Shown piece by piece: positions 1 to 25,440 of a DNA stretch of 39,870 nucleotides (position 1 is its first letter; every line of letters starts with the position of its first letter). The DNA lies in assembly GCA_003344405.1 (NCBI GenBank), contig NOWV01000181.1, positions 34,131 to 74,000 on the forward strand. Reading direction: 5' to 3'. A model generated the notes under the pieces. It saw only the letters and a list, made by a program, of their open reading frames with translations. It was not told the DNA's origin and made no database searches. This DNA comes from Trichoplax sp. H2 (Eukaryota). The position numbers and the translations under genes are program-made.

Positions 1-370
1 GACATATCGTAATCTGACTATTCTGTATTAGTCATTACATGTCTATGTTCGTAAATACTGTTGTCTGCATTAAGGGAGCAGTAGCTAAAATTAATATCTA
101 ATTCAGTAAATGATTCTAATGTTAATTGTATTAACTATGACTCATGAACTATTGAGGAATAGTATATAAATGCAGTATATCGTGAAATAAAGAAGAATTG
201 TCCAACTTAGTGTTTAACGTAAAATACGAGGCGTTTAAGTCTTTGTGTAGTCTGCTAGTAGAGCAAAAGTGTTTGTGATAGTGCAGATATCGTTCCTTGA
301 TACGTGGTTCAAGGAATTGACTTATTGATCGTATATTGCGTTATCTTGTTGCAAAGCTGTTTTGTGACAG
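1..370. repeat. Left arm of a ~370-bp inverted repeat. Its reverse complement matches 8661..9029 at about 95% identity. It may extend beyond the window start.
   Basis: I reverse-complemented 8661..9029 by eye and it aligns base-for-base with 1..370 apart from a few substitutions and small indels (for example gttaattgtattaactatgactcatgaact, ggaggcgtttaagtctt and gttgcaaagctgttttgtgacag). The match diverges after gacag at about 370. Confidence 0.85.
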
Positions 371-1204
371 TCATGCAAATATGCTGAGTAGAATATAACA
401 GATACAATGTGTAGATGATTTACTATCGATCGACGTAAGCACCATTAATCGTATCAAGGAATTACTTGTAATAATGTGATTTAGTAATTATAATGACTGC
501 TGTTCATTCTAGACTATTTTATTTTCTATTAACTCTCCTAAGGGTAAATGTTAACTTATGATTTGGAAACTGAAGTTGTGAATTTCATATTGTAATGAAT
601 ACGTATGTAAAACTGATTTTCATTGCTACTTAAACGATATATTTCAAGTTTATAAAATTTAAGTTATGGTTATAAATTAAAGAGACGAAAAGTAAGAATT
701 TGACTCAAGCGTAACTCTTTATAATTAATTTTATTCAATGTAACAATGAAAATACTCATAAAGCTACTTATTTTTAGTTATTTATCACTAACTTGATAAT
801 CAATTCTTTGTGATACCGTGTTAAGATATTGTATTGTTACTTTATCTAATTTTTAAAATTTTACCTTGAGTTTTAATGAAGTTAGATAAGAACAAACCCT
901 GTACGTTTATTCTATGATTAAAACTGGGAATATTGTACTAGATAAATATAGTCCTTGTAAATATCACTAACGAATGGCAGAGTGCTACATCTTATCCTGT
1001 AAACAATAAGGTTCGTTCTCTACCTTCTACTGTATATATACTGTGGAAAGATGTCGATTTGGAAGTATAACTGTTATACCGGCTGAATATACGCCCATCG
1101 CGGAGCACTCTCACGCCATTGACTTGATGAATTGGAAATAGATTGGTATCGAGTAATCGCCTTGTAATTGAAGAATTTAAGCCTATATTCATTTTGATCG
1201 TATT

Positions 1205-1560
1205 TTCTGCTGGAATAGGAATCTTTTCAAATTGCACCTTTACATAATAAATAATTTATTAGCTTACTTCTAAGAAGAAACAAAATATACATCGATTAAT
1301 GGCCGATCATCGTAGTACCTTCCCCAAATTAAAAATCAGAGGTAATAATATAATCGTCACCCGGAAGTGAAAAATCTTCTAATTAAAGCAGTGTATACCC
1401 TATATGGATGTAGGGGTACAATCATTAATTTACATTCTTATTTCAACTTTGAGATTTACAACGTTATCATTTTCTATCAAATCTTCTAATATTGGGTTCT
1501 CGAGTTTATGTTTCCGTGTAGAAATGACCCATGAATATTTTCATCATTTACGGCATTAAG
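1205..1560. repeat. Dispersed repeat, copy A. Its homolog is at 20520..20900 in the same orientation, at about 75% identity.
   Basis: Shared blocks: ttttcaaatt(g/a)(c/t)accttt, aagaagaaaca(a/g)(a/g)atac(a/g)tcgattaat, tcacccggaagt(g/a)aaa and atcattttc(t/g)atca(a/g)atc. Confidence 0.6.
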
Positions 1561-2859
1561 TTAAAGCACTAGCTGAAGTAAGAATGGATCACTAGAAGAG
1601 ATTACCTTATTTCCTCCAGTCTTCATCGGCTACTTGAATCTTTGATCATAACATATTGCAGTAACTTATAATTGCTCAATATCAGCGCTATATCTACGCG
1701 TCTTAAAATATAAACTATTTTTTTTTTATTGACAATCAACACTAGCATATTAAATTAAAATTATTGCGTGAAATCATCAACAATCACGCGCACCTTAGAA
1801 GAAGAAATTTATTTAGCAGCTGTGTCAGTAATTCTTTTAGGTGCTTTTTTATCTTTATTGTTCCTGATATAATTAAATGATTTTCCCCAGGTTAAAATTA
1901 GTATTAAAAAGAAATTACTCACTGTTGTAAAGCCCAGTTTTAAAAATATTACAAGTGCATAACTATATCATTCTGTGTTTTTTAAACTGACTATGCTTGA
2001 TTAAAGCTAACATCTGTTACTTTGTAGTCTAATTTTATTAGCTCCACCTCTTACTATATAATATAAAATAATTGTGTACGATTTTATTGCCACGGTCCTA
2101 TGTCGTTTCAATCAAGTTGACATGAGTGTTTCTGATTGGCTGAAAAGGGATTACCGTCACTGTAAAAAAAGAACTTTTCAGAATTTACCGCAAAAGCGAA
2201 GAGTGTACAGAAACTTTACTGTTCAATTACGGGGAAATGCCTTTTTAATCTGAATCATCAGTATGATATCCAAGCTACTAACAAGGCGAGTCTTGTTTTT
2301 TATTACAGATCATTATATAAACAGTACAATCCTTGCAATCTCATCTAGATAACTTTCATAACTACTACATTAAGAGTGATTATTATGGTAGGATATTAAT
2401 GTTACAATACCACGGTGAATACCATTACCACATAATGAAAACCCAAAATATCGCAAATTAATCAATTAAATTAATCTATCATTACAGTCACAATTCTGTT
2501 TTGTACTGTGTTACACAATATCCAGTATACTGTACTGTAATATACCTTACATTCTTTATATATTATATATATATAATAATTCTACCCTATCTTGTAACAA
2601 TTTAGAACCTTAAGTTTGCCCAAATTTTGGTTATTTATTAAAAGAATTGTGCTTTACTTCACAATAATTAGCAAAACACACTTATACATATATTCGTACA
2701 GTATAATAATCCTGCTTTTTTTAAAGTTTACGAATATTTTTTATCCTAAATTTTGCAAGGAAAAAATTTATATTGAAGTGTAAAAAATGTTAAAGAAAGT
2801 ACACAGCAAATTATAATAAAAAAAATCGTCGATATAGTACGGAATAAAATAAATGTTTG

Positions 2860-3400
2860 TCTTTCCAGCGAACACTATCTTAACTTCAGTTGTCTATAGA
2901 TTGCATCGTAAGACAAACATACATTTTAAAATCTTGTACTACCTTATCTTTAGTTATCTATTAACTACATTATTAATTAATAACAGTTAGTAGGTAAACA
3001 GTTAATCGACCGAAGATCAATCGATATTGTGCAGTTTAATTGAATACACTTATTATTGGATTTCTCAAAACACATGAAATGTTAAAGCAGGAATTCAGAT
3101 GAAACTAACAACTACGTTCGGTCGAATATTTTATACATTTTAAACAAACGCATGTCATCTTTACGCTAACACTACTATACGTTTAGCCATTTGTAGACCA
3201 TATTATAAAACAACCGTCAGTCTTGACGACTAAGACTATTTTCCATTCAGTCGTTCATAAGTCGTCTGTAAACTTCATTAGAAATAAATGGATATCTTTA
3301 CGGCTAACACTACCTAATCTTCAGTCGCTTATAGACGGCATTATAAAATGAATGCATATCTTTAACGCTAACACTACTTTTAGTACCTGTTATGGAGCCA
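2860..3400. repeat. Degenerate tandem repeats of about 70-150 bp. Recurrent motif: (a)tctttacg(c/g)taacactac(c/t).
   Basis: The motif recurs at about 3146, 3292 and 3358. The related ttaacttcagttgtctatagattgcat at 2880 matches taatcttcagtcgcttatagacggcat at 3316. Confidence 0.55.
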
Positions 3401-5214
3401 AGCTCCAAAATAATAAAGGCCTTGTTAATTAAAATATATAATATAAATTGTTGTTTATACCCCAGTGGTCTAATAAGCGTTAATGAATACATGTTTATTG
3501 ATAAGGTTAATGTCTAAGTAATTGAATACTAATACCTAAGTGTAAGGCGTAATTTATACTGAGCCTTGAGGCTCTAATTGGCACAAATAAATTTATTATT
3601 CTTAATTAGCGTTAACTTATACTGATTTATGTTAACTTCTTCTATCTAAATTCCTACACTAAACAGCGTAACTAGTTATGTCTAAGATACTAACATATGC
3701 ACCATCGGCGGAGGCCGAGACTATATAAATTCGAGCACTAAATTAGCTGTTCAGTTCCTTTTAAAACATTTTTAGATTCACTTAATCATTTTTGCTAGGA
3801 GTTTTCTTAGGATATATCTCAATAAAGTAAATTCTTGAAGCCTATTACCCGTTGGTAGCTTATCTGTGTAGTCGAGAGTTAGTTCAACTACGATAAATCG
3901 CCTAAGTCAGTTGGGGACACGCGTAGTCGTGACAACAGCGTTTAAGACCTCTTCGAAAAGGCAATTCGTAACAGTGCCATACCTTTACATCCTGTTACGA
4001 ATTATAAAATACGAAATAATTGACAAGTAAAGTATGAAAAATGGCTAGATAATAAATCAACTGATAATTAACATTATACAAGAACCAAAAAATCTCTTCT
4101 TGAGCTGAATTTCGGACATTAGCCACAATTTTATCATAAAAATAAAGCTACGGGTAGGGCAACAAAATCTGTATTGCTCGCTTTATACAACATGTAAATC
4201 ACACTAAGAATAATTGCATATTTTATAACTGCTCTCTGGTGATTTGATTAGTCAAAAAAGTTCTTTATATCTATAGCGGAACTTCAAAATCGAGGACGAA
4301 CAACAACACTCGACGGCGCTCTATTAGCACGATACTTAAATTGTTTACAACATACAGATTATAAAATAAGATGAAGTAAACTTGCAAAACTAAGTAAGCC
4401 TTTTCAAATCTAAGAATCTTCTTCTACTCACTATGTTAACAATAGTATATTTTTGAAAGAGCTTCACTACTGTTAGTCAATTGCATAAAAATGATCAAAT
4501 TTATAGCAATAAGATAAATATTCGGATATTCATATTCTGATCGTTGTTAGTATCAATCAACACGATTGGTAATTTATTACCTGTTTTGGGTTTGCGACAA
4601 TGGGACTTTTGGCGAAAATATTTCCAATGCGTTAATAATTTAATAATCAATCGGGATGGAACAATGGAATATTAATATATATTAGAAATTTCTTGTTTTA
4701 TTCATTATAAGTAATTTCAATAATGGTCTATAATTGGAGGGAGATCAGCCATTTCTTCCTATAACCGACTTGATAGATCGTATTGTCTTACAATCAATGA
4801 ATTGGTTGTCAATCACGATCAGTTATGAACAAACTTTTATGATTGAAGTGTAGTTCCCACATGATACAACAATTTGCAGAACTTTCAGACGTATTGTTTT
4901 GATTCCATATTTAAGTAAACGTATGAAATCATGTCAAGTATCTGATCCTACGGGAGCGGTATGTAATATCTTTCAAATACAAAAATACACGATTCGAAAA
5001 TTATTAATTCATTAAATCGCTTAAGGCTATAACTTAAGGCATATCATGATAGTCTGTTCATATCAGCTGGACTGTTGGTGCGTTGACGCTGTAACGTTTA
5101 GTAAATGCAAGCATCCGTTTCCGTGTACCATCCTTTTATTTGGCAAATAGTCATCAGTAAAGCAGTAATTAAAAAAATTACAGATAAAATAGACTCTACA
5201 GTTCAAGGTAGAAA

Positions 5215-5766
5215 TATTGGAATTAATTGACAAGAAGAGCTTGCAGAATTAGCAATCCATCGATAAAACTTTTGAAATTGATTCCTCTTTCTTGATTTAT
5301 TTACCACTAACATCGATATTACGGTATTCATTTATGAAAAATTTAAACATTTTAATAGCAAAAGAGCATAACCCTACCAGAAAAGATCAAAATAGCCAAG
5401 CAATCGTGTGAAAAACTTAAAATTGATTCTATTTTACGATTAATATTGATGATTGATACTGATATTGATAATTCATTAACTGATATTAGACATTGATATT
5501 AATTGGCAAGAAGAGCTTGCAAAGTTAGCTATCCATCGCTGCTGGGACTTTCGAAATTGATTCCTCTTTCCAGATTCCAGCTGTAACTAATATTGATATT
5601 GTGTAAGGTATTCATTTCGTAAATTTGGACACTTTATTACCAAAAGAATATAACCTTACAGGAAAAGAGCGAATATAATCAAACTATCGTATCAAAAACT
5701 TAAAATTTGTTCTATTTGGCGGATAAATATAGACGACTGATACTGATTTTGAGAACCCACTCAGAG
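5215..5766 (+). promoter_or_regulatory. Two tandem copies (about 5215..5490 and 5491..5766) of a ~275-bp conserved upstream module ending 10 bp before the GPCR-1 ATG. Core sequence: TTGACAAGAAGAGCTTGCARAATTAGCAAYCCATCG.
   Basis: aattaattgacaagaagagcttgcagaattagcaatccatcg at 5221 matches tattaattggcaagaagagcttgcaaagttagctatccatcg at 5497. Downstream blocks (gaaattgattcctctttc, ccagaaaag/caggaaaag, aaaacttaaaatt) are also shared. A third copy lies upstream of GPCR-2. Confidence 0.7.
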
Positions 5767-5776
5767 CACAAAGAAT

Positions 5777-6913
5777 TTGATATATAAAATGAACGCTAGC
5801 TTTAATGACTTTATTAACAAGACCCAATCATTTCATAGTAATATTTGGAGCGATATAATTAGACGCACTGAAATCATGCAGCCGGCTTTGACTGTGATGG
5901 CCTGCTTATATATTATGATCATGGTTATAGCTATACCTGGTAATTCATTAATCTTATGGATTACTTTGGCCAACAGGCGCCTGAGGACACCGACAAACTT
6001 AATGGTTTGTAATTTAGCCGTAGCAGGATTGTTGTTAGCAAGCATACAGATACCTTTTAAAATTTTTGATCTTTTAAGCCCAATTCAGTCAAGATATTAC
6101 TATCCGTTTAGCGTTTCTGTATGCAAGATGACTCTAATGATACCTGGAGTATGTGTTACAGCAATATCGTTTACCTTAATGGCTATTTGCGTCGATCGAT
6201 ATCGTGCGATTGTAACTCCGATCAAATTTAAGTTGATAACCCATCCAGTTAAGGTCGCCATTTTTTTGCCATTATGTTGGTTATTTGCTTTCTCGCTTTT
6301 GGCGCCTTATGGTGCTTTTGCAACCATTCACCCATGGTTTGAACAACGCCAAGTTTGTGTTGTAAATTGGATGACTAACCACCATTTGGATATCATCTTC
6401 GTTAAAAATAGAATAGTGTACTTTATACCTTTCTCCAAGATGATCCTCTGGCTATTATTTATTATTCTAGTCTTTCTTGTGCCAACAATCATTATGACAA
6501 TGTTATACAGCATTGCCGCTCGAGTGTTGTGGCGTGAAGGGCTAGAAAAGATGCGAATGATGACTTCGATGAGTCTAGAATCCAGTTCGATTAGCCGTGA
6601 ACGATGTGCTAGCTTAAGTTTGGATGAGCATCGATTAAAAGCTCGAAAACGAACTATTAAAATTTTGATAGCCTGCTTTATCTTGTTTATTGCCAGCAAT
6701 TTACCGTATTATACTTTGCTCACGTTGTTTGAATTTAAATTAATTCAACTTCCAAATTATTTCGTACGTTATGGTCTGATCAATGCATTTGTGCTCTTAA
6801 ATTATACTTGCATTGCTTATAATGCCATTATTTATGGCTACTTTAATTATAACTTTCGGCGTAATGCTCCTCGATGGTTTCATTTGAAGAATTATTGTTC
6901 ACAGTGCAGATGA
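5777..6913 (+). CDS. Intronless rhodopsin-like (class A) orphan GPCR, 378 aa, paralog 1. The true start may be the second Met at 5789.
   Basis: Full-length ORF with seven hydrophobic segments. TM2 reads NLMVCNLAVAGLL and the DRY motif is CVDRYRAIV at the end of TM3. The TM7 motif is NAIIYGY (NPxxY with P replaced by A). N-terminal N-glycosylation sites are present (NAS). The C-terminal tail NYNFRRNAPRW is conserved with paralog 2. Confidence 0.85.
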   Translation: MIYKMNASFNDFINKTQSFHSNIWSDIIRRTEIMQPALTVMACLYIMIMVIAIPGNSLILWITLANRRLRTPTNLMVCNLAVAGLLLASIQIPFKIFDLLSPIQSRYYYPFSVSVCKMTLMIPGVCVTAISFTLMAICVDRYRAIVTPIKFKLITHPVKVAIFLPLCWLFAFSLLAPYGAFATIHPWFEQRQVCVVNWMTNHHLDIIFVKNRIVYFIPFSKMILWLLFIILVFLVPTIIMTMLYSIAARVLWREGLEKMRMMTSMSLESSSISRERCASLSLDEHRLKARKRTIKILIACFILFIASNLPYYTLLTLFEFKLIQLPNYFVRYGLINAFVLLNYTCIAYNAIIYGYFNYNFRRNAPRWFHLKNYCSQCR

Positions 6914-8660
6914 ATTAATGCACAAGAGCCGTGATAGGGATTCTATATTGTGGTAGAATGTCAACAATTTGCGGTTGATCAAAAACTACAGATAACTGAA
7001 AGTATCTAATGCAACTATATTAGATGACTAAAATAAGTAAGAGCTTTTAAATTGGCAGTAATTTGAATTTCCTTACTCTTTATTGATCTTATGTTTTGGT
7101 ATTGAAATTGAAATAGAAAGCTAAATCTTATTATACGATTTCAATGATACTACTCTTTCGAACACCACCGTAACTGTATTATTTAACTAATTGATATCTT
7201 TAATTTGGAGATGGTATGTTGATTCAAATAATTGCGACTTAGTAGTTCGTCGATGATGATGACGAAGTGAAAATAACTTCGAAAATTAACGTAAGAAAGC
7301 GTAATTTGGGAATATTGAATTTAGTCAATTGCTTACAGTTAATCAGTGTTGTATAACGAATGTTAATGACAATACAAAATGTTTTCAGCTCAGTAAAATA
7401 AATTCTCTAGACCTATCTGGAAAATGTCGCTAATTCTACGTGTTTTAATTAAGAGTAGTTTTTGCTTGGTTGGTAAAGTAAAGTTAGCATTTTATATTCA
7501 AAAGAGCAAGAGAAAATCTATGATCATTTGAATAAGTAAGAAATCTGCATACGGTATTAATTCTTAATGTTTAAACTATCGGAAAGATGAAATTATCTAG
7601 TAGGAATAAAAATATCTAATCATTGTATGGAATTCAAAGGAATCTCATTCTTGCATGATAAATTAATGAATTGCTGATAGAATTTCCAAAACTTTTTGGT
7701 GCATGGCTTTTGAATAATGAAGCGATAATTACTTCTTACACGACTTGATCGGTTGTGAGATTCTAGCCAATCTTTCATGGTCGATGGTAGAATGGTTTCG
7801 AAAATGTGACAAACAAATTTTAAATATAACAGATAATTAACTGATTTTGTACTAGGAGTTTATCGACTAAGATACATTTACTCTTGCATTTAAAACTGAT
7901 TCATAATTTAGTTATGAGTGCACTGATAGAATAATCTATGCCGTCTATGCCACTAAACCGTTAACAGACTAAATAGTCTGTAGAGCAACAATATTGATTT
8001 TAGTTTTTGAAGTAGTTTAAATTTTCTAGTTATAAATTTCCATTTGTAATAACAGTATTAAACGATAGCTTAGAGAGATTGGAGATATTAATTAATTAAC
8101 ATTTAATGTAACTTACCAGTAAACTATGCTTAAGAATACTGTTTCTTGTTTTAGTTATTGCTAACGTTAATACTAAATTTTGGCTACTTAAAAACTAATG
8201 AAGTAAATTGTAGATGGTGAAGATTTTCATTTATTATAGCAATAGAAAGAAAATACTGAACGCCAGTTAATAATGTAAATAAGTAAGAAAGCACAAATAA
8301 AATAAATAGGGTTGAATCAAATTGTCATATAGCATTAATAATCGTTATTAGTGCAAATGATTATACGCGTATTTCAATTTAATTTCTTAATTTAATAATT
8401 GTATTTAGATCCTTCTTCAATCATGTTAGCAGGTTTTGCTATATTTGTGCAAATACCTCGAGTGCATTACCAAGTAGGTAATTAATACCGGTATGTAGTA
8501 AAGGAATATTAATTTTGACTGACTGTAGGAATTTCTATGTTTTATGAGCTAACTCTTAACAATTTCAAAAGTAGACTTAAATTTGAGATTACTCGCTTGC
8601 TTACGGTATGTCGGCGATTTGATCATTCAAATTATTTTAATTGATGTACTGCATAAGTTG

Positions 8661-9029
8661 CTGTCACAAAACAGCTTTGCAACAAGATAACGCAATGTAC
8701 GATCAATAAGTCAATTCCTTGAACCACGTATCAAGGAACCATATCTGCACCATCACAAACACTTTTGCTCTACTAGCAGACTACATAAAGACTTAAACGC
8801 CTCGTATTTTACGTTAAACACTAAGTTTGAGAATTCTCTTTATTCCAATATATACTGCATTTATATACTATTCCTCAATAGTTCATGAGTCATAGTTAAT
8901 ACAATTAACCTCGGAATCATTTACTGAATTAGATATTAATTTTAGCTACTGCTCCCTTAATGCAGACAACAGTATTTACGAACATAGACATGTAATGACT
9001 AATACAGAATAGTCAGATTACGATATGTC
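8661..9029. repeat. Right arm of the inverted repeat paired with 1..370.
   Basis: Same alignment as the left arm. The repeat ends at 9029 (gatatgtc), which corresponds exactly to window position 1. Confidence 0.85.
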
Positions 9030-10514
9030 CTATCACGGAACATTTCCATGATAATTTACAATCTGCCATAAGTAAATTACAATCACAATGATTCGATCTG
9101 TAAGTAGATGATTTGCATTCCCTATTATAACTATTAATTTCAGTATGTGTATAAGTGTCACTGTGATAAAAAGTCAGTGCTATATTAAAACACAGTATAT
9201 CCAAATCAGAAGTTAACTAAATAAGGATAGTCTAATAGAATTATCCTAACATAGATATTTCTACTGTAATACAGTATTTAACACTATAACAGTTGCCAAT
9301 TAAGATCAGGTGCGAACAGCTTTGTAATTAACTTGTGAAATACAACGATAGACAACGCTGAGATTATGCATTGAATAGGCTATATTGTGATAAACTATTT
9401 TTCTCAAAAATAGTAAATGAATTATAGTTTACTGTTATGATATATACAAATCACGAGATTCCAAATTTTAGAAAAATAAGGGCTTTATTGAATCTTTACA
9501 AAGATTAACTACACACAGCTCTACTTTAGCCGAATACTACTACTAACGACTTCTAGAACGAACTAACAGAATAATCTGAAGTAGCATGCTTTTATACTTT
9601 TCGTAGCATTCGTAGCTACAATCTGTATGGCAACCTTTTACCTTATATTACACATAGTTAAATTATTCTTAGTAAGACTATTCTACTGCGGACCATCATT
9701 AATCCAATATGGATACGACTACAGTACTTACGTAGACATTATTTACACCAGCCAAAGTACAATGAATTAACCATATCCTAATATATGATTTACAGTTCTA
9801 TTTTTACCTAAAGCCTAATTAGTAACTCAACACCTCACCGTATATAGTCATGTGTACTCTAGCATAGAGTCTATACCACTACAGTCTATAGTTATAGCTA
9901 CCAAATATCTGTTAGGATAAATATCTACCGTATATTAAACTTGGCTAACAGTCTACAATCACAATACTAGTTACATTACAACTGTAAACTTGGATTCACA
10001 ACCTATATCTGGTTTATCTTACACTTATTCATATTGTGGCTTCTAATTGAATTATCACAATGTGAATTTTATACTGCTAACGCAAGCTATATATAGTATA
10101 TAACATTAAATAAAAATTTTTATGTTTTATTAACGATAAACAACTTGAATAATAGACCTCCATGTAAAATCCATCGTTTATTTGCGTTACCTTTCTATTA
10201 AATCTCATTGGTTTAATTGATAAATACGTTGTCAATCACGATAAGGTATGAGCAGCTGGTTTAAATTAACTCCCAAAATATGAATATATGTAATTCAGAG
10301 ATTATAACTCTATAAATGATTTGAAGCTATAAAATAAAGCTAATCACAATTATCTTTTCATATCTGTTTGGCCACGATACATTGTAATTAAAAGTAGAAT
10401 CATACGTTTTCGTACAGTGATTATTTTATTATACAGAAACATATTAAGATAAAGAAGACTCTGTTTTGAAAATTTCGATAGACTGACTCTACGTTTCATA
10501 GCAGAGACATTGGT

Positions 10515-10790
10515 ATAAACTGACAAGAAGAGCTTACAAAATTAGCAACCCATCACGGAAAATTATTGCAATTTATTTCGATTTCTGGACTACTTTTGCG
10601 ACTTATAATTATATCAATATTGTGAACGGCATCCAGTAGCAAATTTAGATATTTTGTTATCAATAAAGTATCGTACCATCTTATCAGAAAAGTGCTAAGG
10701 CCAAAATTAACTAATCGTCTTAAAAGCTTGAAATTTATAAAACTTTATGATCAAGACTCATCGTTAATACCGATATTGAATATCCATTTA
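10515..10790 (+). promoter_or_regulatory. Third copy of the conserved ~275-bp upstream module, located 70 bp upstream of the GPCR-2 ATG.
   Basis: ctgacaagaagagcttacaaaattagcaacccatcacgg at 10520 matches the core at 5228 and 5504. Downstream blocks atcagaaaagtgctaaggccaaaat and cttaaaagcttgaaattt also match the other copies. Confidence 0.65.
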
Positions 10791-10859
10791 GAACACGAAG
10801 ACTCTATAATATTGAAATTATCTATCATTTAGACAAATATCACTAAGTAAATCATCAAA

Positions 10860-11996
10860 ATGAATAACAGCATTAATGACTTCGTGAATAACTCTCAGGC
10901 AATCATAAATAATATATCCGGTTATATTGAAAGAATTGAAGTTATACGAACAGCTTTGACCATAATAGCCGTCATATACGTTACGCTAATACTTATAGGT
11001 ATTCCTGGCAATTTATTAATTATATGGATTACTTTGGCTAACAAGCACTTGCGGATACCGATAAATTTATTGGTTTGTAACTTGGCCCTTGCTGGATTGC
11101 TAATAGCAAGCTTACGAATTCCAATTACAATTTTCGAACTTTTATTCCCCATTCAATTTGCTAATCACTATCCGTTTACTCTTTCAGTCTGCAGATTGTC
11201 TGAAATTGTGCCAGGTGCATGTGTCATAACAATATCTCTTACGTTAATGGCTATTTGTATCGATCGATATCATTCGATTGTACATCCAACAAAGTACAAA
11301 CTGAGAATGAATCCAGTTAAGGCCATTATTTTTTTGATATTATGCTGGTTGTTCGCTTTCTCGTTTTGGATACCATATGCATTTTTTATTAGGATTGGTA
11401 GCTCTACGAGATATCGCTATTGCTACACAATTTGGCCTTCAAGTCCGTTATTGGATGTAAGAATTCCTAATTCCGCTTATGGAAATATCATAATACCATA
11501 CTCAAAAATGATTTATTTGCCACTCTATTTCATTCTGATCTTTCTTATCCCAATTACCATTATGACGACATTATATATCATTACTGCTAAAAAATTGTGG
11601 CATACAAGGCCTGAACATATGTTAACAACAGCGCTTAATAGTACAAAACCCAATGCGACTACTAGTAAACGATCCGATAACATATCTCAGGATGGACATC
11701 GACTTCATGCTCGAAAACGGATCGTTAGAATTTTCATAGCTTGCTTTATCTTATTTATTTTCAGCAATCTGCCATATTACATGATCACAATCTTAATTCA
11801 ATTTGGATTAATTCCAGTTTGGAGTGGTAACAGTGAATTTGTACTGTATAGAGTTTTTATTCTCTTGAATTACTCCTGTGTTGCTTATAATGCCATTATT
11901 TATGGCTACTTTAATTACAACTTTAGACGTAAAGCTCCCCGATGGTTACAGTATAAATGTCCGCAATGTAGATCAGCAAGGCTATCAGCAAAGTAG
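10860..11996 (+). CDS. Intronless rhodopsin-like (class A) orphan GPCR, 378 aa, paralog 2. It is a tandem duplicate of 5777..6913.
   Basis: The two proteins are collinear and highly similar by eye. WITLANKHLRIPINLLVCNLALAGLL aligns with WITLANRRLRTPTNLMVCNLAVAGLL, CIDRYHSIV with CVDRYRAIV, and NAIIYGYFNYNFRRKAPRW is identical in the tail. Both are 378 aa. Confidence 0.85.
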   Translation: MNNSINDFVNNSQAIINNISGYIERIEVIRTALTIIAVIYVTLILIGIPGNLLIIWITLANKHLRIPINLLVCNLALAGLLIASLRIPITIFELLFPIQFANHYPFTLSVCRLSEIVPGACVITISLTLMAICIDRYHSIVHPTKYKLRMNPVKAIIFLILCWLFAFSFWIPYAFFIRIGSSTRYRYCYTIWPSSPLLDVRIPNSAYGNIIIPYSKMIYLPLYFILIFLIPITIMTTLYIITAKKLWHTRPEHMLTTALNSTKPNATTSKRSDNISQDGHRLHARKRIVRIFIACFILFIFSNLPYYMITILIQFGLIPVWSGNSEFVLYRVFILLNYSCVAYNAIIYGYFNYNFRRKAPRWLQYKCPQCRSARLSAK

Positions 11997-12899
11997 AATA
12001 ATGCCAACAATTTAGTGTTCATGAATTGTTTTCGCAAATAAAATCACAGCAGAAGCGATAATTACAGGATGAAATACATCAATACCTATTTTTAATTCAT
12101 AGTAGCTTAAAGTGAGGAGCTGCTTTTTCCATGCTTCACTATTTTAAGCTATTTCAACTTTGCCACTTCTTTCACGAACTGCTATTTATCGGTATTGTTT
12201 AATTAATTTATGAATTCCTCCAATTTTGTCTTAGTAGGTTATGTTAAAGAAAAGGCAATGTGATTATCACGATTATGTGAAATTAAAGCTAACAATATGA
12301 ATCAGCAGTTGCAATTTGCGGACATTAAATTGCGTAGAACGCTTGAAGTTAATTTATTTTGGACAGCTCATGTATAGTTCAATGTAAAAATGATCTCAAC
12401 TCAATTCAAGCAACTAGACCAAGCCTTTCAAGAAAATACAGTCGTTTTTGCTTTCTTAATTGAAATCTCCATTTAAAGGCATTATTTAACTTAATGACTG
12501 CTAATGATGAACATGAGTCAGCTCATATCTAAAGTAAACTTGAAACTTGCTTATCATGTAATTCCTAATTTCGTAATTCCAATAAATAGGAATTATTTAT
12601 AATAGCATAATGAGAATATCCAAGTATTGTATGTAAATGAAAAACCTAATTCTTGCAATATAGATTGCTTAAGTTCTGATAGAATTTAAAAAAGTATTTG
12701 CTGCATAGTTTAGAATAGCACAGTGATAGGTACCGTAAAATACTTTATTGGCAACAGTGAGAATCTAATGTATGCTACCCTGGGCTTGACCTGAAATACA
12801 AGCTCCAATTGGCATTTCTTAATGATACTTCTGGCACAAGTACAAATAACAGATACATTACAAAATCATATGCTATCACGACTAAAACTGAAAATAAAT

Positions 12900-13300
12900 T
12901 ATGTGTCGGCAATACGCCAGTAATATTTCGATACAGATGAGACAAGTGAATTAACTTATTCGATAATATTGCTATTTAGCAGCAAGGGCTTCGCTGAAAA
13001 TAAGCTGTGTGTCCGTAATACTCAAACAATATCGTCGATACAAAATAAATATAAGCTACTTAAAGATAATTTACATATCAATCGGTATTGCTGTTTTGTG
13101 TCTCAGATTTAATTGAAATCAAACTATGAATCATTAATGAACGAACGATATTGTCTAGGCAAATGAGACAAGTAAATTAACCTACTTGGGTAATATTGCT
13201 ATTGGCATCACGAATTGCATAGAAAATGCGTAAACTAAGTGCTGATAATGCTGTAACTTAGATACAAATAAGACAATTGGTTGACATTTTCGGCAATATT
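12900..13300. repeat. Degenerate minisatellite of about 120 bp with about 4 units.
   Basis: Recurring unit ...gatacagatgagacaagtgaattaacttattcgataatattgctat.... Variants occur at about 12903, 13010, 13150 and 13260. Confidence 0.5.
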
Positions 13301-16250
13301 TTAAGTATTAAGCATTTTACCTCTAGAAATGAAGTGGTAATAAACGGTGCAGTAATGCTTTAGTAAAATCGAGAAAAATATTCAAGTTAAGCAGCAAACA
13401 TAACAAGGTTGGTATTGAAAAATTATCTCGTAGATCGTTAATTTCTGCAAGTTTTCAATTTAAATAGTATTTTATGCTAGAATGGCAAGCTTTTCAAATG
13501 ATACGCTATGAAGAATTTTACAACGACACATTTTATGAGCCTTCTTCTACCTGTTGAGGTACGAGTAATAGTATAGCTAGCAAGGATAGCTGGAAAAAGA
13601 TTACTTACAACAATATCTGCTCTTAGAAATTAGGAACTTAGAACAATACTCTAAAGAAAAAGCGAAACTGCTAAAATATGAAATTAACGTTGTGTATATC
13701 AGATTGTGAACAACATCAATTAAACTTTCAGAACTTAATTTGCACCGGAGATTCTATGATTATACTTGTACACTAGCCTATCTAAACAGCTTTACTACAG
13801 GCAGTCAACTGCATAGCAGTTATCAAATTCATAGTTTTCGGATAAATTGTATTATGCGAAACTCGTATTCTGATATTAAAACGATTTGTATCCATATGAA
13901 GTTTGTGGTTGAGGCGCTATATTACATTAACATATTGATAAATTAAATTGTATTTCAAATTTAACATCTGGCATTCTGTAGACTTCCATTCGACTTAGTT
14001 TACCTATTTGCCAATAAAGAGCTATCATATCCTCCTATCTTTCGTGCATCTGTGATAATATTTATTAGGTTAAACAGGAACTATTAAGACTAAAGATATA
14101 GATTTGACAAACAAGAAGCTAAATATGATATTTGCACCGATGTTGCTATTGATGAAGATGAGCATTGAAAAAAACGCTACAGTAATTGAGCGTTGTGCTG
14201 TAATATTTAAATGGACAGATGACAACAAAATGTATACTATACTGCTTGTATAGATAACACAGCTGTTATGGAGTTTGTTACGATTATTTACGGTTAGGTA
14301 CGATATTATGTAACGTAGTTTTCCATTAACGGTCATGGCTTTAATTAATCCGAACACAAACTAGTCCAGTAGTATGGTACATATACGCATTGAATATGTA
14401 TGGTAACAGTTTATATAGACGCATTAGTTAAGGCGTTACCATCATAGCTATCTTAATTATGGAAATATTCAGGATCGTCAGTAAATGACATTTAACGATA
14501 CTAAATATTTGCCTAGATAAAATACCGGCTTTCTTGTAAATAATTTATAATTTCTTACTTGGTAATCCCTGATCTTTAATATCTTAAGAGATCTCAATTT
14601 AAATGAAGTAATTTAAAGGGATTTTCATTGATTCTAGAGCACGGCAGGTTATACTGAATAACTTAGTTAAATAAGATGACCAGGAGAAAATAACCTTAGC
14701 AGTTAGAATCAGGAAGTGCAATTTGGACATAGTTAACCTAGTCGATTACTTAGAGTTAATAGATATTGAGCAGCGAAAACTAACTACAATATAAAGATTT
14801 GTTTCTTAGCTCAATTAAATAGACTATACTACAAATTTAAAGAAAATATTACACTTTATCGGTATTTATTTAATTCAAAGCCCAATCATAATATTTGAAA
14901 CAGTACAATTAGCAAATTTGTTTGAAAGGTCGAAAAAAATCAACTTTCATCTAAAAATAACCGGAAATCCATATACGGTTGTTATACTTCTCTTACTCTC
15001 TGAGACATAGACTCCTTACAAACCCCAGCTTTTACTCCAGCAACACAATACGCAAATCTTAGAACTTTAAAATCGCCTTTTATTCACGTAGCCTTTGTAA
15101 TGAAATGAAATGTGTAGGAATCAAGCTACAAAACTTTTAACTAACTTCTGATCCTACTTTCTTTGCACTCTGGTCGACTTAATAACACTTTGACACCTAA
15201 TAAAATTGGGTAAACAACGGATCAACAATTTATTAAGAAAATGAGTGATAGACTAATCAAACAACCTTCCAAATGCTTAATTCTAGGTATTATCAATAAC
15301 GAAATAAAAAAGCGACAGAACTGATACTGTCAGCAACCAAACAACCTAACAAATAGAAGAACGCTTTAACTTATATCAGTTCGACCCAGAAGGTCTTTAA
15401 AATTTAACTAGTTCTTCAAATAATCATCTTTTACTCTCTACCTTAAATTTTCTGATTGCACTATTATTTATAGGCTTCACAGAGCCCCTGGTGGAATTTA
15501 AAACTAAACATTTACTAATCAATCATTCTGACGATCCATTTTAGATAACTACTTTGCACCGCTTAAGAAAACAAAAATTATTGAGACACAGTCTGCTCTA
15601 CGATTCCTTACAAAACACTATAAAACCAAACAAACTATCTATGAAATACTCTAAAATTCATCAAGCTTCACTTTCAACATAATTTGTAATCATTATTTCG
15701 GACTTTACTTAATAATTCCAATTAGCAGATTACAATATTACAATTATAACTATAATTACAATTTCAATTAGTATTATTATTACTAGAATCATATTATAGT
15801 AAATTTTGTCAATCAATTCGGCTTACTATTGACAAACATGTAACTTATATCATATCTATCTTGTCCAATACTTGTAACTGATTTAATAACTGGTCTATGA
15901 TTTACAGGCGCTAAACAAATAATCATCTAATTTGAAGGCATAGAGGTTGTTATAGGACCAATACTACTGCCCGTTACAATTCTAAATTTGTAACGGAAAA
16001 ATTTCATTTTAAACCTAGAATCTAAATACTACCCATATTACAATTCCAAATAATGGCGATCATCCATCGCCAGGAGGAACAGCAATGTATTTATATAGGA
16101 AAGAATGTATAATGTCATAGATAAGACCATTCTCAATAAATATCAAAGGATGTTATCTCTAGCGGAAATAAGATATGCGTTACTTATCAAAAAATCGCTA
16201 AGCGACAGCTACTGTATATATTGTCAGATATTACTAAATTTAATTTCTTT

Positions 16251-17735
16251 TTATCTTCTTTTACAACCTAGATTTATGCCATTAGCTGGAGACATAGTTA
16301 TGCCACACCTTAATGGTAAGGGAACATCTGTTTCTTCAGTAGTAATTAATTCTACACTTCGTAAAATTTTCACAAGGGCCAATTTAACCTCTAGCAGAGC
16401 CAATCTCTTTCCGATACAATTTCGTGGCCCGTTGCCAAATGGAAGAAATGCGCAAGCTGCGTGCTTGGATTTCTCCTCCGGCGTGAAGCGTTCAGGCATA
16501 AACTGCTCTGGATTAGGCCATAAATTAGGATTATGATGAATAGCATAGATAGGAATAGCAATCATAGCCTCTTTTGAGATCTGATGACCATCAATTGTAA
16601 TATCATTTTTGCATTTTCGAGTAACTCTAAATGCGGGTGGATAGATTCTTAATGTTTCCAATATAACCATTTCTAGATAGGGTAAGTCCGATACACAATC
16701 ATAATCTAAAGGATCAGTATCGTTAAGTTTTGTTTTAATTTCATGATATAATCGACGCTGTATTTCTGGGTTTATTGCCAATAAGTAGGTGGCAAACGCT
16801 AATGTATTTGCTGTCGTTTCGTAACCTCCCACGAGAAAGACCAAAGCCTGAGCGATAATTTCTTTGTCGTCTAATTTATCGTTATCACCAGCTTCGATCA
16901 TCTGTTGTAACATATCTCTACGGCATGAAACGCCTTCAGACATATTTTTCCTCCTTTCCTTAATTACATTTCTGCAAGTATCCGCTAAATAATTTAGCGA
17001 GTTCATAAACTGCCCACCAAATAGTGGCTCTAAAATACGAAATAACGGTGTTGCAAATAATAGCAGTATATGCAGTAGACCAGGTGAATTACTCGCTAGC
17101 TGACTAGCAGCACCAGTTAATCTCTTTTCTTGTTCTTTCGATTCAAATTCTATTCCAAAGGCAGAAGCAAGAATAACCTTCATTGTAAATTTGCCACAAA
17201 TCCTCCATAACTCAATAGAACGGCCTTCTTTTTCTGCGTTTAATAACATTACAACAATTTCATTACTAGCCTTGTCAACACAGGGGAAAGTGAGCTTCAA
17301 CTTTGATGTGCTAAATGTAGGTATTAAAATATTCCTTACACGCTTCCAGTCCGTATCTCTCAATTCTACTAACGTTTTATTAAACGGTTCTAAATTATTA
17401 GCGATACCGAAACGGTTAGTGAAATTGGAGAAGTCCTTGATTAAGACTGATTTCAATACTTCTGGATCGCCAATCCAGATGGTAGGGACGGAAAAAAATA
17501 AAGTGCCATACACATGACCGTATTTTTCTTGTCTTTCTACTTGGACTAAGTGCTGCGAAGCCGATTTACCATCCAACAAGTTGCCAAAAAGGGGTTTAGG
17601 ATGGGGACCACTTAATCCCAATTTTCTCAAATGACGATAAGGTTTAAGGTAGTACTTGTAAAAACACCAGGCCAGAATTGTACCTGATATTAATAAGATT
17701 TGCGATATTGATAACTGCAACCCAATCATGTTCAC
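16251..17735 (-). CDS. Cytochrome P450, CYP3-clan (CYP3/CYP6-like), 494 aa, single exon.
   Basis: Full-length ORF with an N-terminal membrane anchor and KYG.VYG near the N-terminus. I-helix VGGYETTANTL, EXXR motif (ILETLRIYPP), PERF motif (FMPERFTPEEK) and heme-binding loop FLPFGNGPRNCIGKRLA are all present. The overall arrangement is collinear with CYP3A-type proteins. Confidence 0.9.
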   Translation of the reverse strand: MNMIGLQLSISQILLISGTILAWCFYKYYLKPYRHLRKLGLSGPHPKPLFGNLLDGKSASQHLVQVERQEKYGHVYGTLFFSVPTIWIGDPEVLKSVLIKDFSNFTNRFGIANNLEPFNKTLVELRDTDWKRVRNILIPTFSTSKLKLTFPCVDKASNEIVVMLLNAEKEGRSIELWRICGKFTMKVILASAFGIEFESKEQEKRLTGAASQLASNSPGLLHILLLFATPLFRILEPLFGGQFMNSLNYLADTCRNVIKERRKNMSEGVSCRRDMLQQMIEAGDNDKLDDKEIIAQALVFLVGGYETTANTLAFATYLLAINPEIQRRLYHEIKTKLNDTDPLDYDCVSDLPYLEMVILETLRIYPPAFRVTRKCKNDITIDGHQISKEAMIAIPIYAIHHNPNLWPNPEQFMPERFTPEEKSKHAACAFLPFGNGPRNCIGKRLALLEVKLALVKILRSVELITTEETDVPLPLRCGITMSPANGINLGCKRR

Positions 17736-19439
17736 AGTTTTCCTGTACTGTATACTGAATTTCTAGTTAAAATAAGTCATAAAATACTCCAGGAAGATAT
17801 TAACACGTTATTACTTTTTCTCTGATGAAAGTAAATGTTACAGGATGCTATATAATATGAAGTTAATGCTTAAAGGCGATAATAATTCTTCAATCTTCTA
17901 GTCTATGCAGGTTTTAAGATTGATAAATTGATTTCAATTCTGGGAGATTTTGTAAACTTTATAAAGGCATTAATTTAATACAGGTATAAAAGCTTTAGTG
18001 TTTTTTTACGTCGATGAGTAAATATTCTAGGGGGTAGAATCTAGTTTTAGATTAAAACTTGAAGATGACCGACGAATTTTCCTTTGGCTAATTCAGCCAG
18101 ATTTTCAGGCTTGATAAAACGATTTTAGTCTGAGAAAAGTTGTAAATATTTAAGGTAAGAATGGCGGAGAACGTGTATGATAGGGAATCTATTTTCCAAT
18201 AGTGAATTTTATAGGCTTGTGCCGTTCCAATTACCAAGGCAGGAATTTAGCAAAGCTAATAGCTTACTTTAGAAGACTAAATAACGATTTTCTGTGTAAC
18301 GATTTACGTTCTTCAACATTAACTAAGCAATAAGCCAATGCACAGGATCAACTTTATCTCGCTACCAAGATTGCTAGTACATACAGTTAAATGTACTGTA
18401 TATCAGTTCTTTTACGCTGCTAAAAAGAGATCCAGAAGTGGACTGGAATAAAGAAACCTGTAGATAATATAACTGTACTATTGGAAGAATACAATTTGAT
18501 CTACTTTAATACTGTGTCAATAATGGACTTAGCCTATATGCTGGAGTAACTACGATACTTCTTGCTCGTTTATTCGCGATTTGATAGCACATTTCTGCAG
18601 ATTTTAGCTTATACGAGTATGGCTATGTGCTCGGCTGATAGAATATCCTTTACAGTCTTTTAGCTTATTCCATCTGTCCGAAGGAAAGGTAATTTTATGC
18701 AAAAGATGGTTGCTTTCTAAGTTCCTCGTATCAAAATATAGTGTAAATCATATATAGCACATTGCCATGTATGGGCCCTGTTGATGCTTCTATTTGTATA
18801 CAAATACTGCAATGTCAATAAATTAAATCATTCGACATCGTATAACCTTACCTCCAACTAATATCTTGCATTTTACTATCAAAGGCCTGACTAATATAGC
18901 GATATCCTCCACTTAGTATCAATAGAAACTAGACGTTTAAACTTACCAGTATAGGTCAAAGATGTCGCTATTGGCTCTTACTTGGTATCAATTGCTGAAA
19001 TTAAATAGGGTTCGAATTTCCCCCATTTAATGAATGATCCTACGATTGACGAGTATACGCGTATGTCTGCATGTTGATAGCTCTATGGCTACAAATTACT
19101 GCTATTCTATCTGTGATGGAGGGTTAATGATTTTACAGAGGCAGATCTATAACCAATTAGAAATTGATAACAAGGCATTGCGTAAGAAAATAGATTCTTT
19201 ATCATAGACTACAACTGTGAGATAGTTACGCTAGAAAAGGTTGTAAACTGTTGTGAAATAATGTAAGAATAATGAATACTGTGACTAGTTTCGCTTATCC
19301 TCAATCTCTCCATAAATCTATAATCATCATATACCCAAGAAATTGACAACGTCTCATTATCACCACAAAGTCCAGCAATACAGGCTATGGTTTATAATAA
19401 GATGTAAAACTACTGCAAGATTTCATCTACTATCTTGCA

Positions 19440-24811: not shown

Positions 24812-25287
24812 GTTTTAAACTATTTCCAATCTGAAACCACAGACACCATACTATCTGAAGATGTTGCTTCGTTAACGCAATATTTATGGGCAGAAGCCGT
24901 AGGAGAATTAGATGAAATATTATCATCATCCGTGGAAGAGATTACGAACGAAAATATTGCATCAGCGGAAGGGATTCTCCTCAAATTAAAGACCTGCCTA
25001 TCCGAAAACCGCTATGATCAAATCAGCAACCTTAGTCAACAATTTTACTCCTTAATTCCACACAAAAATGATGATATAACTATTGATTCATTCCGATTAA
25101 TTAGTGATAAGCAAGATCTTTGTCAATTAATACGGGACATCATTAACGTTAGTGAATTAACCGATTGGAAGATGGATAGTAGTATAAATGCCAAGTACAA
25201 AGCATTAAAGTGTGATATTCAAAATTTGGAAGAAAACAGCCATGAATTTAAATCCATAAAGAATTATACTTTATCATCCTGGAAAGG
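24812..25287 (+). CDS. PARP4: PARP4-like exon, PARP alpha-helical regulatory domain.
   Basis: ..LTQYLWAEAVGELDEIL.., AEGILLKLKTCL, LSQQFYSLIPHKN, KQDLCQLIRDIINVSE and AKYKALKCDIQNLEENSHEF match the vPARP/PARP1 regulatory domain (FYxLIPH, DLCQLIRD). The acceptor is ctactag at 24811 and the donor is agg|GTAAGT at 25288. Confidence 0.75.
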
Positions 25288-25440
25288 GTAAGTTAAAGTT
25301 ATCTTACTTTACAGTAAATAATGTTCATTACTTATTTGCTAGAAACGGAAATTCCAAAAAACTAAATACTGATTTAAAAAGTCTATAAACTTTTACGATC
25401 ACAGCGAGCCTACAACAATAAAAATTAATAGAATATTTAG

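What the first reader, a model, noticed from the sequence alone, without database searches (positions are those of the whole stretch)
5215..10790. Conserved ~275-bp module immediately upstream of both GPCR paralogs, tandemly doubled before paralog 1
Three copies are present (5215..5490, 5491..5766 and 10515..10790). They share a nearly invariant 35-bp core, TTGACAAGAAGAGCTTGCARAATTAGCAAYCCATC, plus downstream blocks. Each copy ends 10-70 bp before the receptor ATG, although the coding regions have diverged to roughly 60% amino-acid identity. Conservation of non-coding sequence greater than that of the CDS suggests a functional element, such as a shared promoter or enhancer, a 5' UTR exon, or an upstream ncRNA. 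Alternatively it could be a small repeat (MITE/SINE-like) that travels with the gene.
Basis: seen in the sequence. Interest (0 to 1): 0.55.

Follow-up and report, generated by a model that had tools for sequence, protein, structure and literature searches.

The report
Co-duplicated upstream region of GPCR paralogs
Three copies of a ~280-bp non-coding stretch lie upstream of two neighbouring Trichoplax (placozoan) receptor genes because gene and flanks were copied together and one upstream stretch was later doubled. This is an ordinary by-product of gene duplication, and its one well-kept 35-70-bp block may be a promoter element.

Summary
All carry the 35-bp core.

The window is Trichoplax sp. 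H2. The two intronless rhodopsin-type GPCRs (5789-6913 and 10860-11996) share 51% amino-acid identity, not 60%.

The module is not a bounded element. Homology between the two loci runs on either side of it, about 4664-7765 against 10093-12767, so this is a tandem segmental duplication of gene plus flanks. Copies A and B are a later head-to-tail duplication (period 284, 74% matches).

Taken whole, the module (62-64% identity counting gaps) is no better conserved than the CDS at nucleotide level (65-66%) or than 4-fold sites (60%). It is better kept than the other flanks (55%), through fewer indels rather than fewer substitutions. Only the core block stands out: 28/35 columns invariant and 57/70 for A against C, with shuffle p of 0.006-0.03.

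I found no terminal inverted repeats, tRNA-like sequence, conserved ORF, Rfam match or RNA structure. No further copy turned up in about 126 kb of placozoan DNA, including the upstream regions of ten other family members.

Best reading: a proximal upstream (promoter or leader) region inherited by duplication, with a possibly constrained cis-element. Low interest.

The parts
4664..7765 (+). Duplicon 1: GPCR1 with about 1.1 kb of upstream flank (including the doubled module) and about 0.85 kb of downstream flank.
   Evidence: Self-BLAST chains 4664-4831, 4975-5477 and 5488-7765 onto 10093-12767.
10093..12767 (+). Duplicon 2: GPCR2 with its flanks, colinear with duplicon 1. The two ATGs are 5071 bp apart.
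5209..5484 (+). Module copy A, the distal copy of the tandem pair upstream of GPCR1.
5485..5770 (+). Module copy B, the proximal copy. It ends about 19 bp before the GPCR1 ATG.
10502..10795 (+). Module copy C, the single copy. It ends about 65 bp before the GPCR2 ATG.
5227..5261 (+). 35-bp core in copy A. The conserved block against C extends to 5192-5261 (57/70 matches).
   Evidence: (family D5).
5503..5537 (+). 35-bp core in copy B.
10520..10554 (+). 35-bp core in copy C. The extended block is 10485-10554.
5403..5422 (+). Second-best conserved block, ATCGTnTnAAAAnCTTnAAA, with 16/20 columns invariant. Its counterparts are 5686-5705 in B and 10714-10733 in C.
   Evidence: (family D8).
5439..5500 (+). 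ATTGAT-type microsatellite at the A/B junction. ATTGRWAT-like 13-mers also lie at all the unit borders, which makes unequal exchange between them the likely origin of the doubling.
   Evidence: The mechanism is inferred.
5789..6913 (+). GPCR1 CDS: 374 aa, 7tm_1, intronless.
10860..11996 (+). GPCR2 CDS: 378 aa, 7tm_1, intronless. It is 100% identical to the 'Substance-K receptor' of Trichoplax sp. H2.
4792..4831 (+). Another conserved non-coding island of the duplicon, 80% identical to 10215-10254.
   Evidence: family D9.
7641..7709 (+). Conserved island downstream of the genes, 75% identical to 12643-12711 (54/70 in the best 70-column window).
   Evidence: (family D11).

Best explanation
The module is the proximal upstream flank (promoter and/or 5' leader) of an intronless, placozoan-specific rhodopsin-type GPCR gene.

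Shown: an ancestral gene with about 0.8 kb of upstream and about 0.85 kb of downstream flank was duplicated in tandem, with the two copies about 5.07 kb apart. This gave GPCR1 and GPCR2. In the GPCR1 lineage a unit of about 280 bp of the upstream flank was then duplicated head to tail. That event is roughly 0.8 times as old as the gene duplication.

Inferred: the doubling arose by unequal exchange or slippage between short ATTGRWAT-like direct repeats that flank the unit. Most of the module has decayed about as fast as synonymous sites. A 35-70-bp block containing ACAAGAAGAGCTTRCA...TTAGC...CCATC, and perhaps the block ATCGT..AAAA.CTT.AAA, has been kept in all three copies because it is a promoter-proximal transcription-factor binding region. 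GPCR1 would then carry two copies of it.
For: Origin by descent:
- The window is Trichoplax sp. H2. T. adhaerens H1 has the same locus at 99.4% identity, with A, B and C all present.
- Homology between the loci is colinear and continuous well beyond the module on both sides.
- TRF reports a 2.0-copy array of period 284.
- In the three-way alignment A-specific, B-specific and C/stem changes number 27, 31 and 44, which gives the tree ((A,B),C) with equal rates in A and B.

Decay matches the age of the duplication:
- Between the two CDSs dS is 0.95 and 4-fold site identity is 34/57 = 60%. The module is 62-64% identical.
- For calibration, two placozoan family-member pairs with 73-76% amino-acid identity were compared. 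The pair with dS 0.75 keeps 64% upstream identity. The pair with dS 1.07 keeps only one 287-bp patch at 62%.

Hints of constraint:
- The core is the best non-coding window in the duplicon: 31/35 and 57/70, with column-shuffle p of 0.03 and 0.006. In the three-way alignment 28/35 columns are invariant against 158/300 overall, p = 0.023.
- The module has fewer indel columns than the other flanks, 8% against 19%, p = 2e-6.

Context from the literature:
- Placozoan gene regulation is reported to be promoter-proximal, without distal enhancers. H2 is reported to have 923 GPCRs, largely placozoan-specific expansions expressed in cell-type-specific combinations (PMC10580291).
- Independent GPCR duplications in placozoan lineages are reported in PMC6067683.
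Against: - No transcription, TSS or chromatin data could be consulted, so 'promoter' rests on position relative to the ATG only.
- The statistics for the core are marginal. They were computed post hoc, and column shuffling ignores the clustering of gaps.
- Substitution identity in aligned columns does not differ between module and other flanks (0.696 vs 0.674, p = 0.5).
- Comparable conserved islands exist elsewhere in the duplicon (4792-4831 and 7641-7709).
- The core was not found upstream of ten other family members.
- H1 against H2 is too close to be informative. There are 6 substitutions in A+B and none in the cores, where 0.7 would be expected.
Confidence: 0.6

Rival explanations
1. Same origin (co-duplicated flank plus a local tandem duplication), but the whole module including the core is a neutral relic. 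The 35-bp peak would be a chance fluctuation in the decay of an old duplication, with no function.
For: - Module identity equals that of 4-fold sites and the CDS at nucleotide level.
- Aligned-column identity is no higher than in the other flanks.
- Shuffle p-values are only 0.006-0.03 and are post hoc. With a 20-column window p is 0.17.
- Other islands of 75-80% identity occur in the flanks.
- The core is absent from other family members.
Against: - The block has survived in three lineages separated for a time equivalent to dS of about 0.8-0.95.
- It is the single best non-coding window in the comparison.
- The module is markedly poor in indels.
- It lies where placozoan regulatory elements are reported to be concentrated (PMC10580291).
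Confidence: 0.3
2. The module is a small non-autonomous mobile element (MITE/SINE-like) that inserted upstream of the receptors or travels with them.
For: - The unit size of about 280 bp is typical of such elements.
- One weak profile hit to the 3' half of the module lies in an unrelated intergenic region of T. adhaerens: L009 2355-2474, 8.7 bits, E = 0.017.
Against: - No terminal inverted repeats and no tRNA-like sequence.
- The borders are defined only by the A/B doubling. Between the paralogs, homology runs straight through both borders.
- No other copy was found in about 126 kb of placozoan DNA.
- The weak L009 hit is barely above the best score on reversed sequences, 6.4 bits.
- Trichoplax repeat content is reported as only 6.6-6.7% (PMC6057997).
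- The sample is only about 0.1% of the genome, so a low-copy family is not excluded.
Confidence: 0.04
3. The module encodes a structured non-coding RNA or a small upstream ORF transcribed ahead of the receptor.
For: Nothing specific. The only support is position and conservation of the core.
Against: - No Rfam match at gathering score or at E <= 1.
- MFE z-scores are +0.98, -1.29, -0.62 and +1.47.
- The RNAalifold consensus is only -12.3 kcal/mol over 395 columns, with a positive covariation term.
- No ORF is conserved among the three copies, and stop codons flank the core in copy A.
Confidence: 0.03
4. The core is similar among copies because of gene conversion between the paralogous upstream regions, not because of selection.
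For: The loci are tandem, about 5 kb apart and in the same orientation, which is a favourable geometry for conversion.
Against: - There is no tract of near-identity. The best block is 81-89% identical with scattered transitions, and its edges grade into the background.
- The tree ((A,B),C) holds across the module.
Confidence: 0.03

Closest known systems
Tandem segmental gene duplication with co-duplicated flanks, as in lineage-specific GPCR expansions in placozoans
   Same: Two same-strand paralogs about 5 kb apart, with colinear homology of the CDS and both flanks. The family is expanded in Trichoplax, with paralogs at adjacent accession numbers on other contigs. Independent GPCR duplications in placozoans are reported (PMC6067683).
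   Different: Nothing essential. The only addition is a secondary internal doubling of about 280 bp of the upstream flank in one paralog.
Duplicated (paralogous) conserved non-coding elements and promoter-proximal cis-regulatory modules
   Same: A short block is retained upstream of both paralogs at about -250 to -340 from the ATG, while the rest decays.
   Different: Constraint is only marginally supported. There are no orthologs from other genera, no chromatin or TSS evidence and no identified binding factor. The block was not seen in other family members.
Local tandem duplication (minisatellite-like, 2 copies) arising by unequal exchange between short direct repeats
   Same: Head-to-tail copies without a spacer, period 276-284 bp. 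There is an ATTGAT microsatellite at the junction, and similar 13-mers lie at the unit borders in both paralogs.
   Different: Only two copies, and old (74% identity). It is fixed in both H1 and H2. The border similarity is short and was defined post hoc.
MITE/SINE interspersed repeats
   Same: Unit size of about 280 bp, AT-rich, located near genes.
   Different: No terminal inverted repeats, no tRNA-like head, no detectable dispersed copies, and homology continues across the borders.

Membership tests
Tandem segmental duplication of gene plus flanks | Colinear homology in the same orientation that extends beyond the CDS on both sides | tested here: met
   4664-7765 aligns with 10093-12767 in three colinear BLAST segments.
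Tandem segmental duplication of gene plus flanks | Flank divergence compatible with the synonymous divergence of the CDS | tested here: met
   4-fold site identity is 60% and dS is 0.95. The module is 62-64% identical and the other flanks 54-55%, against an unrelated baseline of 49-50%.
Local tandem duplication | Head-to-tail copies without a spacer, detected as a periodic array | tested here: met
   TRF reports 5222-5783 as period 284, 2.0 copies, 74% matches. BLAST gives 5216-5499 vs 5492-5783 at 73%.
MITE | Terminal inverted repeats at the unit ends | tested here: not met
   The only inverted matches are 12-30 nt at 70-86% complementarity, at unrelated positions, and they are not shared between copies.
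MITE/SINE | Many dispersed copies in the genome | tested here: inconclusive
   No further copy in about 126 kb of placozoan DNA. One marginal hit of 8.7 bits compares with a control maximum of 6.4 bits. The whole genome was not searchable with these tools.
SINE | tRNA-, 7SL- or 5S-derived head with pol III boxes | tested here: not met
   ARAGORN finds no tRNA-like sequence in the window. Rfam gives no match at E <= 1 in 4600-10900.
Structured ncRNA (any Rfam family or novel) | Match to a covariance model, or a stable and covarying structure | tested here: not met
   Searches give no match. MFE z-scores lie between -1.29 and +1.47. RNAalifold gives -12.3 kcal/mol with a covariation term of +0.46.
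Upstream ORF or coding exon | An ORF conserved in all copies | tested here: not met
   The short ORFs differ between copies.
Constrained promoter-proximal cis-regulatory element | Conservation above the neutral expectation | tested here: inconclusive
   The core gives 31/35, 57/70 and 28/35 invariant columns, with shuffle p of 0.03, 0.006 and 0.023. Aligned-column identity of the module is not above that of the other flanks.
Constrained promoter-proximal cis-regulatory element | Open chromatin, TSS proximity or factor binding | not testable with these tools
   ATAC-seq and H3K4me3 data exist for H2 (PMC10580291) but could not be queried here.
Constrained promoter-proximal cis-regulatory element | Conservation in orthologous loci of other species | tested here: inconclusive
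   H1 is 99.4% identical and so uninformative. No ortholog of GPCR1 or GPCR2 from another placozoan genus was retrievable.

The most novel reading that the evidence does not exclude
The core, especially ACAAGAAGAG followed by a CA(G/A) four bases on, could be a cell-type-specifying promoter motif shared by a subfamily of placozoan-specific GPCR genes and kept since before placozoan genera diverged. The doubling upstream of GPCR1 would then be a functional homotypic pair of sites.

The lead is this. The exact 10-mer occurs only three times in 126 kb of placozoan DNA. All three are on the sense strand, 205-559 bp upstream of family members: GPCR1 copy A, GPCR2 and TRIADDRAFT_54513. Orthologs of TRIADDRAFT_54513 in another placozoan keep ACAAGAAAAG and ACAAAAAAAG at -177 and -162.

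By a 35-mer match count the TRIADDRAFT_54513 site is at background level, 20/35 by my own count against a background maximum of 21/35. The pre-planned 8-mer test found one locus where about 0.3 hits were expected.
Probability: 0.12. Interest if true: 0.35.

Novelty: new member of a known kind. Interest (0 to 1): 0.15.

Why it matters
The main value is housekeeping. The finding shows that an apparently discrete conserved module is the promoter-proximal part of a gene-plus-flank tandem duplication, with a secondary local doubling, in the large placozoan GPCR expansion.

If the 35-70-bp block is a real cis-element, it would give one concrete candidate site for asking how duplicated receptor genes in an animal reported to have only promoter-proximal regulation keep or diverge in cell-type expression. 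That question can be checked against published ATAC-seq and single-cell data.

Tried and rejected
- Metagenome-wide scan for the 23-nt core pattern. The three hits (L006-L008) match only over the 23 nt, and two of the three contigs have 45-47% G+C. I take them as chance matches.
- Exact-protein look-ups for GPCR1, GPCR2 and P0002 returned no record. The closest paralog cluster (P0002-P0004, on the 617-kb H2 contig) was therefore unreachable.
- A profile (nhmmer --max) of the module was run against all fetched placozoan loci. Only one marginal hit came back, L009 2355-2474, barely above the reversed-sequence control.
- Core Hamming scans upstream of paralogs gave 19-21/35, which is background.
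- Rfam, RNAalifold and MFE z-scores found no RNA signal.
- ORF scans found no conserved ORF. The inverted-repeat scan found no terminal inverted repeats. ARAGORN found nothing.
- tBLASTn found no third GPCR or pseudogene in the window, although partial flank-like homologies exist at 13594-13874 and 14675-14989.
- 'Identity excluding gaps' from a gap-permissive aligner turned out to be useless: unrelated AT-rich DNA gives 63-64%. My first semi-global baseline was invalid, so I redid it with full global alignment and gaps counted.
- I considered naming a transcription factor for the core (TAATT-like and TTGC..AA-like pieces). I dropped this because no motif library was available to test it.
- I looked for splice or TATA signals by eye only. 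A TATA-like run lies at 5781-5788 directly before the GPCR1 ATG, and CTATAAT lies at about 10803. In a genome with 31% G+C these are not evidence.
Full report
**Source and genes.** GPCR2 (10860-11996, 378 aa) is 100% identical to a protein named 'Substance-K receptor' from Trichoplax sp. H2, on a 160,366-bp contig. GPCR1 (5789-6913, 374 aa) matches TRIADDRAFT_61584 and RDD38352. Both are single-exon 7tm_1 receptors. They share 51% amino-acid identity and 66% nucleotide identity, with dN 0.36, dS 0.95 and 34/57 four-fold sites identical. The T. adhaerens H1 scaffold DS985264.1 carries the same locus. L005 4500-21038 equals window 370-16914 at 99.4% identity, with all three module copies present.

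**The observation.** Three copies exist. Self-BLAST gives 5216-5499 vs 5492-5783 at 73% (E 2e-46), and each of these aligns with 10505-10790. TRF calls 5222-5783 a 2.0-copy array of period 284 with 74% matches. A profile of the three copies scores 272-302 bits on each and nothing else in the window. The 35-bp core occurs three times with 3 mismatches or fewer, against no match in any of 100 shuffles. By three-way alignment I place the units at A 5209-5484, B 5485-5770 and C 10502-10795.
- The core has 28/35 invariant columns, with pairwise identity of 29-31/35.
- The proteins are 51% identical, not about 60%.
- Copy A abuts copy B rather than an ATG.

**What it is.** The module is not a bounded element in the paralog comparison. 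Homology between the two loci is colinear from about 4664 to 7765 against about 10093 to 12767. That span covers the CDS, about 0.8 kb upstream (not counting the doubling) and about 0.85 kb downstream. This is therefore a tandem segmental duplication of gene plus flanks, with the ATGs 5071 bp apart.

The unit appears discrete only because about 280 bp of the GPCR1 upstream flank was later duplicated head to tail. In the three-way alignment A-specific, B-specific and C/stem changes number 27, 31 and 44 among 274 ungapped columns. This gives the tree ((A,B),C), equal rates in A and B, and an A/B split roughly 0.8 times as old as the gene duplication.

The A/B junction lies in an ATTGAT microsatellite (5439-5500). 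All five unit borders carry an ATTGRWAT-like 13-mer. This suggests unequal exchange or slippage between short direct repeats, but the pattern was defined post hoc and the mechanism is an inference.

**How well the module is conserved.** All figures come from one global aligner with gaps counted as mismatches.

| Comparison | Identity |
|---|---|
| Unrelated non-coding DNA from the window | 49-50% (sd 1-2%) |
| A vs B | 72% |
| A vs C | 64% |
| B vs C | 62% |
| Farther upstream flank | 54% |
| Downstream flank | 55% |
| CDS | 65% |

The module as a whole is thus no better conserved than the CDS at DNA level or than 4-fold sites (60%). The module is better kept than the other flanks (0.640 vs 0.547, p = 0.004). 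This comes from fewer indel columns (8% vs 19%, p = 2e-6), not from fewer substitutions in aligned columns (0.696 vs 0.674, p = 0.5).

For calibration I used two placozoan family-member pairs with 73-76% amino-acid identity. The pair with dS 0.75 keeps 64% identity across 1 kb upstream. The pair with dS 1.07 keeps only one 287-bp patch at 62%, lying -650 to -385 from the ATG in the T. adhaerens copy. The GPCR1/GPCR2 pattern at dS 0.95 falls between these two, so the extent of flank similarity is what the age of the duplication predicts.

**The core.** The block 5192-5261 / 10485-10554 is the best non-coding window of the whole duplicon comparison. It scores 31/35 and 57/70, with column-shuffle p of 0.03 and 0.006. 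In the three-way alignment the core has 28/35 invariant columns against 158/300 overall (p = 0.023 for 35-column windows, 0.17 for 20-column windows). A second block, ATCGTnTnAAAAnCTTnAAA, has 16/20 invariant columns. Other islands of 75-80% identity lie at 4792-4831 and 7641-7709. The evidence for constraint is therefore suggestive but marginal and post hoc. H1 against H2 adds nothing: there are 6 substitutions in A+B and none in the cores, and copy C lies in a block with no differences at all.

**Alternatives tested.**
- Mobile element: there are no terminal inverted repeats and no tRNA-like sequence. No further copy was found in about 126 kb of placozoan DNA. That sample includes 1 kb upstream of, or all available upstream sequence of, ten other family members: L001, L003, L004, L009, L010, L011 (three genes), L012 and L013. 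One profile hit, L009 2355-2474 at 8.7 bits, is barely above the reversed-sequence maximum of 6.4 bits. The sample is about 0.1% of the genome, so a low-copy family is not excluded. The published repeat content is low, 6.6-6.7% (PMC6057997).
- ncRNA: there is no Rfam match. MFE z-scores lie between -1.29 and +1.47, and the consensus fold is weak without covariation support.
- Coding: no ORF is conserved among the copies.
- Gene conversion: there is no tract of near-identity.
- Public metagenomes: the three 23-nt matches are chance.

**Mechanism.** Shown: the copies arose by descent through a tandem gene-plus-flank duplication followed by a local tandem duplication. Both events are old and are fixed in H1 and H2. 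Inferred: the region is the proximal promoter or 5' leader. The cores lie -559 (A) and -286 (B) from the GPCR1 ATG and -340 (C) from the GPCR2 ATG. This is where placozoan regulatory elements are reported to be concentrated, since regulation is described as promoter-proximal without distal enhancers, and GPCRs are expressed in cell-type-specific combinations (PMC10580291). I put about 0.6 on the reading that the core block is a retained cis-element and about 0.3 on a neutral relic.

**A weak lead.** The exact 10-mer ACAAGAAGAG occurs three times in 126 kb. All three are on the sense strand upstream of family GPCRs: GPCR1 copy A at -559, GPCR2 at -337 and TRIADDRAFT_54513 at -205. Orthologs of TRIADDRAFT_54513 have near-identical versions at -177 and -162. 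By 35-mer match count that site is at background level, 20/35 by my own count against a background maximum of 21/35. The pre-planned 8-mer test was not significant.

**Verdict.** The feature is real and its origin is ordinary. It is a new instance of a known kind: a co-duplicated upstream flank with a secondary tandem doubling and a possibly constrained promoter block. Interest is low. The decisive checks could not be run here. They are a whole-genome copy count, the published ATAC-seq, RNA-seq and single-cell data, and the orthologous loci in other placozoan genera.

Noticed in passing
window 1-370 and 8661-9029: There is a 370-nt inverted repeat at 96.5% identity. The T. adhaerens H1 locus is colinear with the window only from position 370 onward and has only the 8661-9029 arm. 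This means either an H1/H2 structural difference (inverted duplication or inversion breakpoint) or a fold-back artefact in the H2 contig. The left arm is cut by the window start.
   Followed up: partly
window 6056-12443: There are no H1/H2 differences over 6.4 kb, against about one per 130 bp on either side. This looks like a shared haplotype block and fits the reported sharing of identical alleles between H1 and H2 (PMC6057997).
   Followed up: partly
window 5789-5875 and 10860-11996; L005: The public GPCR1 models in both H1 and H2 are 345 aa and start at Met30 (5876). The 29 upstream codons are open and about as conserved with GPCR2 as the rest of the protein. A TATA-like run lies at 5781-5788, directly before the upstream ATG. 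GPCR2 has no gene call in the H1 record.
   Followed up: partly
window 19319-22098 (also 1210-1651 vs 20524-20966): This is a second non-coding region built from units of about 224-276 bp, in two duplicated blocks (19319-20173 vs 20962-21873 at 61%). One start-to-start spacing is again 276 bp. It is unrelated to the GPCR module by profile search.
   Followed up: no
window 13594-13874 and 14675-14989: Partial homologies to the GPCR duplicon flanks (4255-4541, 7258-7565 and 12279-12438, at 61-63%) occur here with no GPCR between them. This may be the remnant of a third, gene-less copy of the unit.
   Followed up: partly
L009 9769-9830; L013 about 836; L012 about 212: ACAAGAAGAG, or ACAAGAAAAG and ACAAAAAAAG in the orthologs, lies on the sense strand 160-205 bp upstream of TRIADDRAFT_54513 and its orthologs in another placozoan. 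It resembles the first part of the core. It is statistically weak.
   Followed up: partly
L009 2355-2474: A marginal profile match (8.7 bits, E = 0.017) to the 3' half of the module lies in an intergenic region between a DNA ligase IV gene and an unrelated gene in T. adhaerens. The reversed-sequence control reaches 6.4 bits.
   Followed up: partly
window 16251-17735 (-) and 24932-25291 (+): There is a single-exon cytochrome P450 gene (494 aa) downstream of GPCR2, which is syntenic in H1. An ORF fragment with a PARP regulatory domain is probably one exon of a larger gene.
   Followed up: no
L001-L004, L012, L013: ENA and Logan metagenome or run assemblies (ERZ23499115, ERZ27263980, SRR30664516) contain GPCR genes 64-79% identical to Trichoplax family members. 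This amounts to DNA from other placozoan lineages sitting unannotated in public metagenomes.
   Followed up: partly
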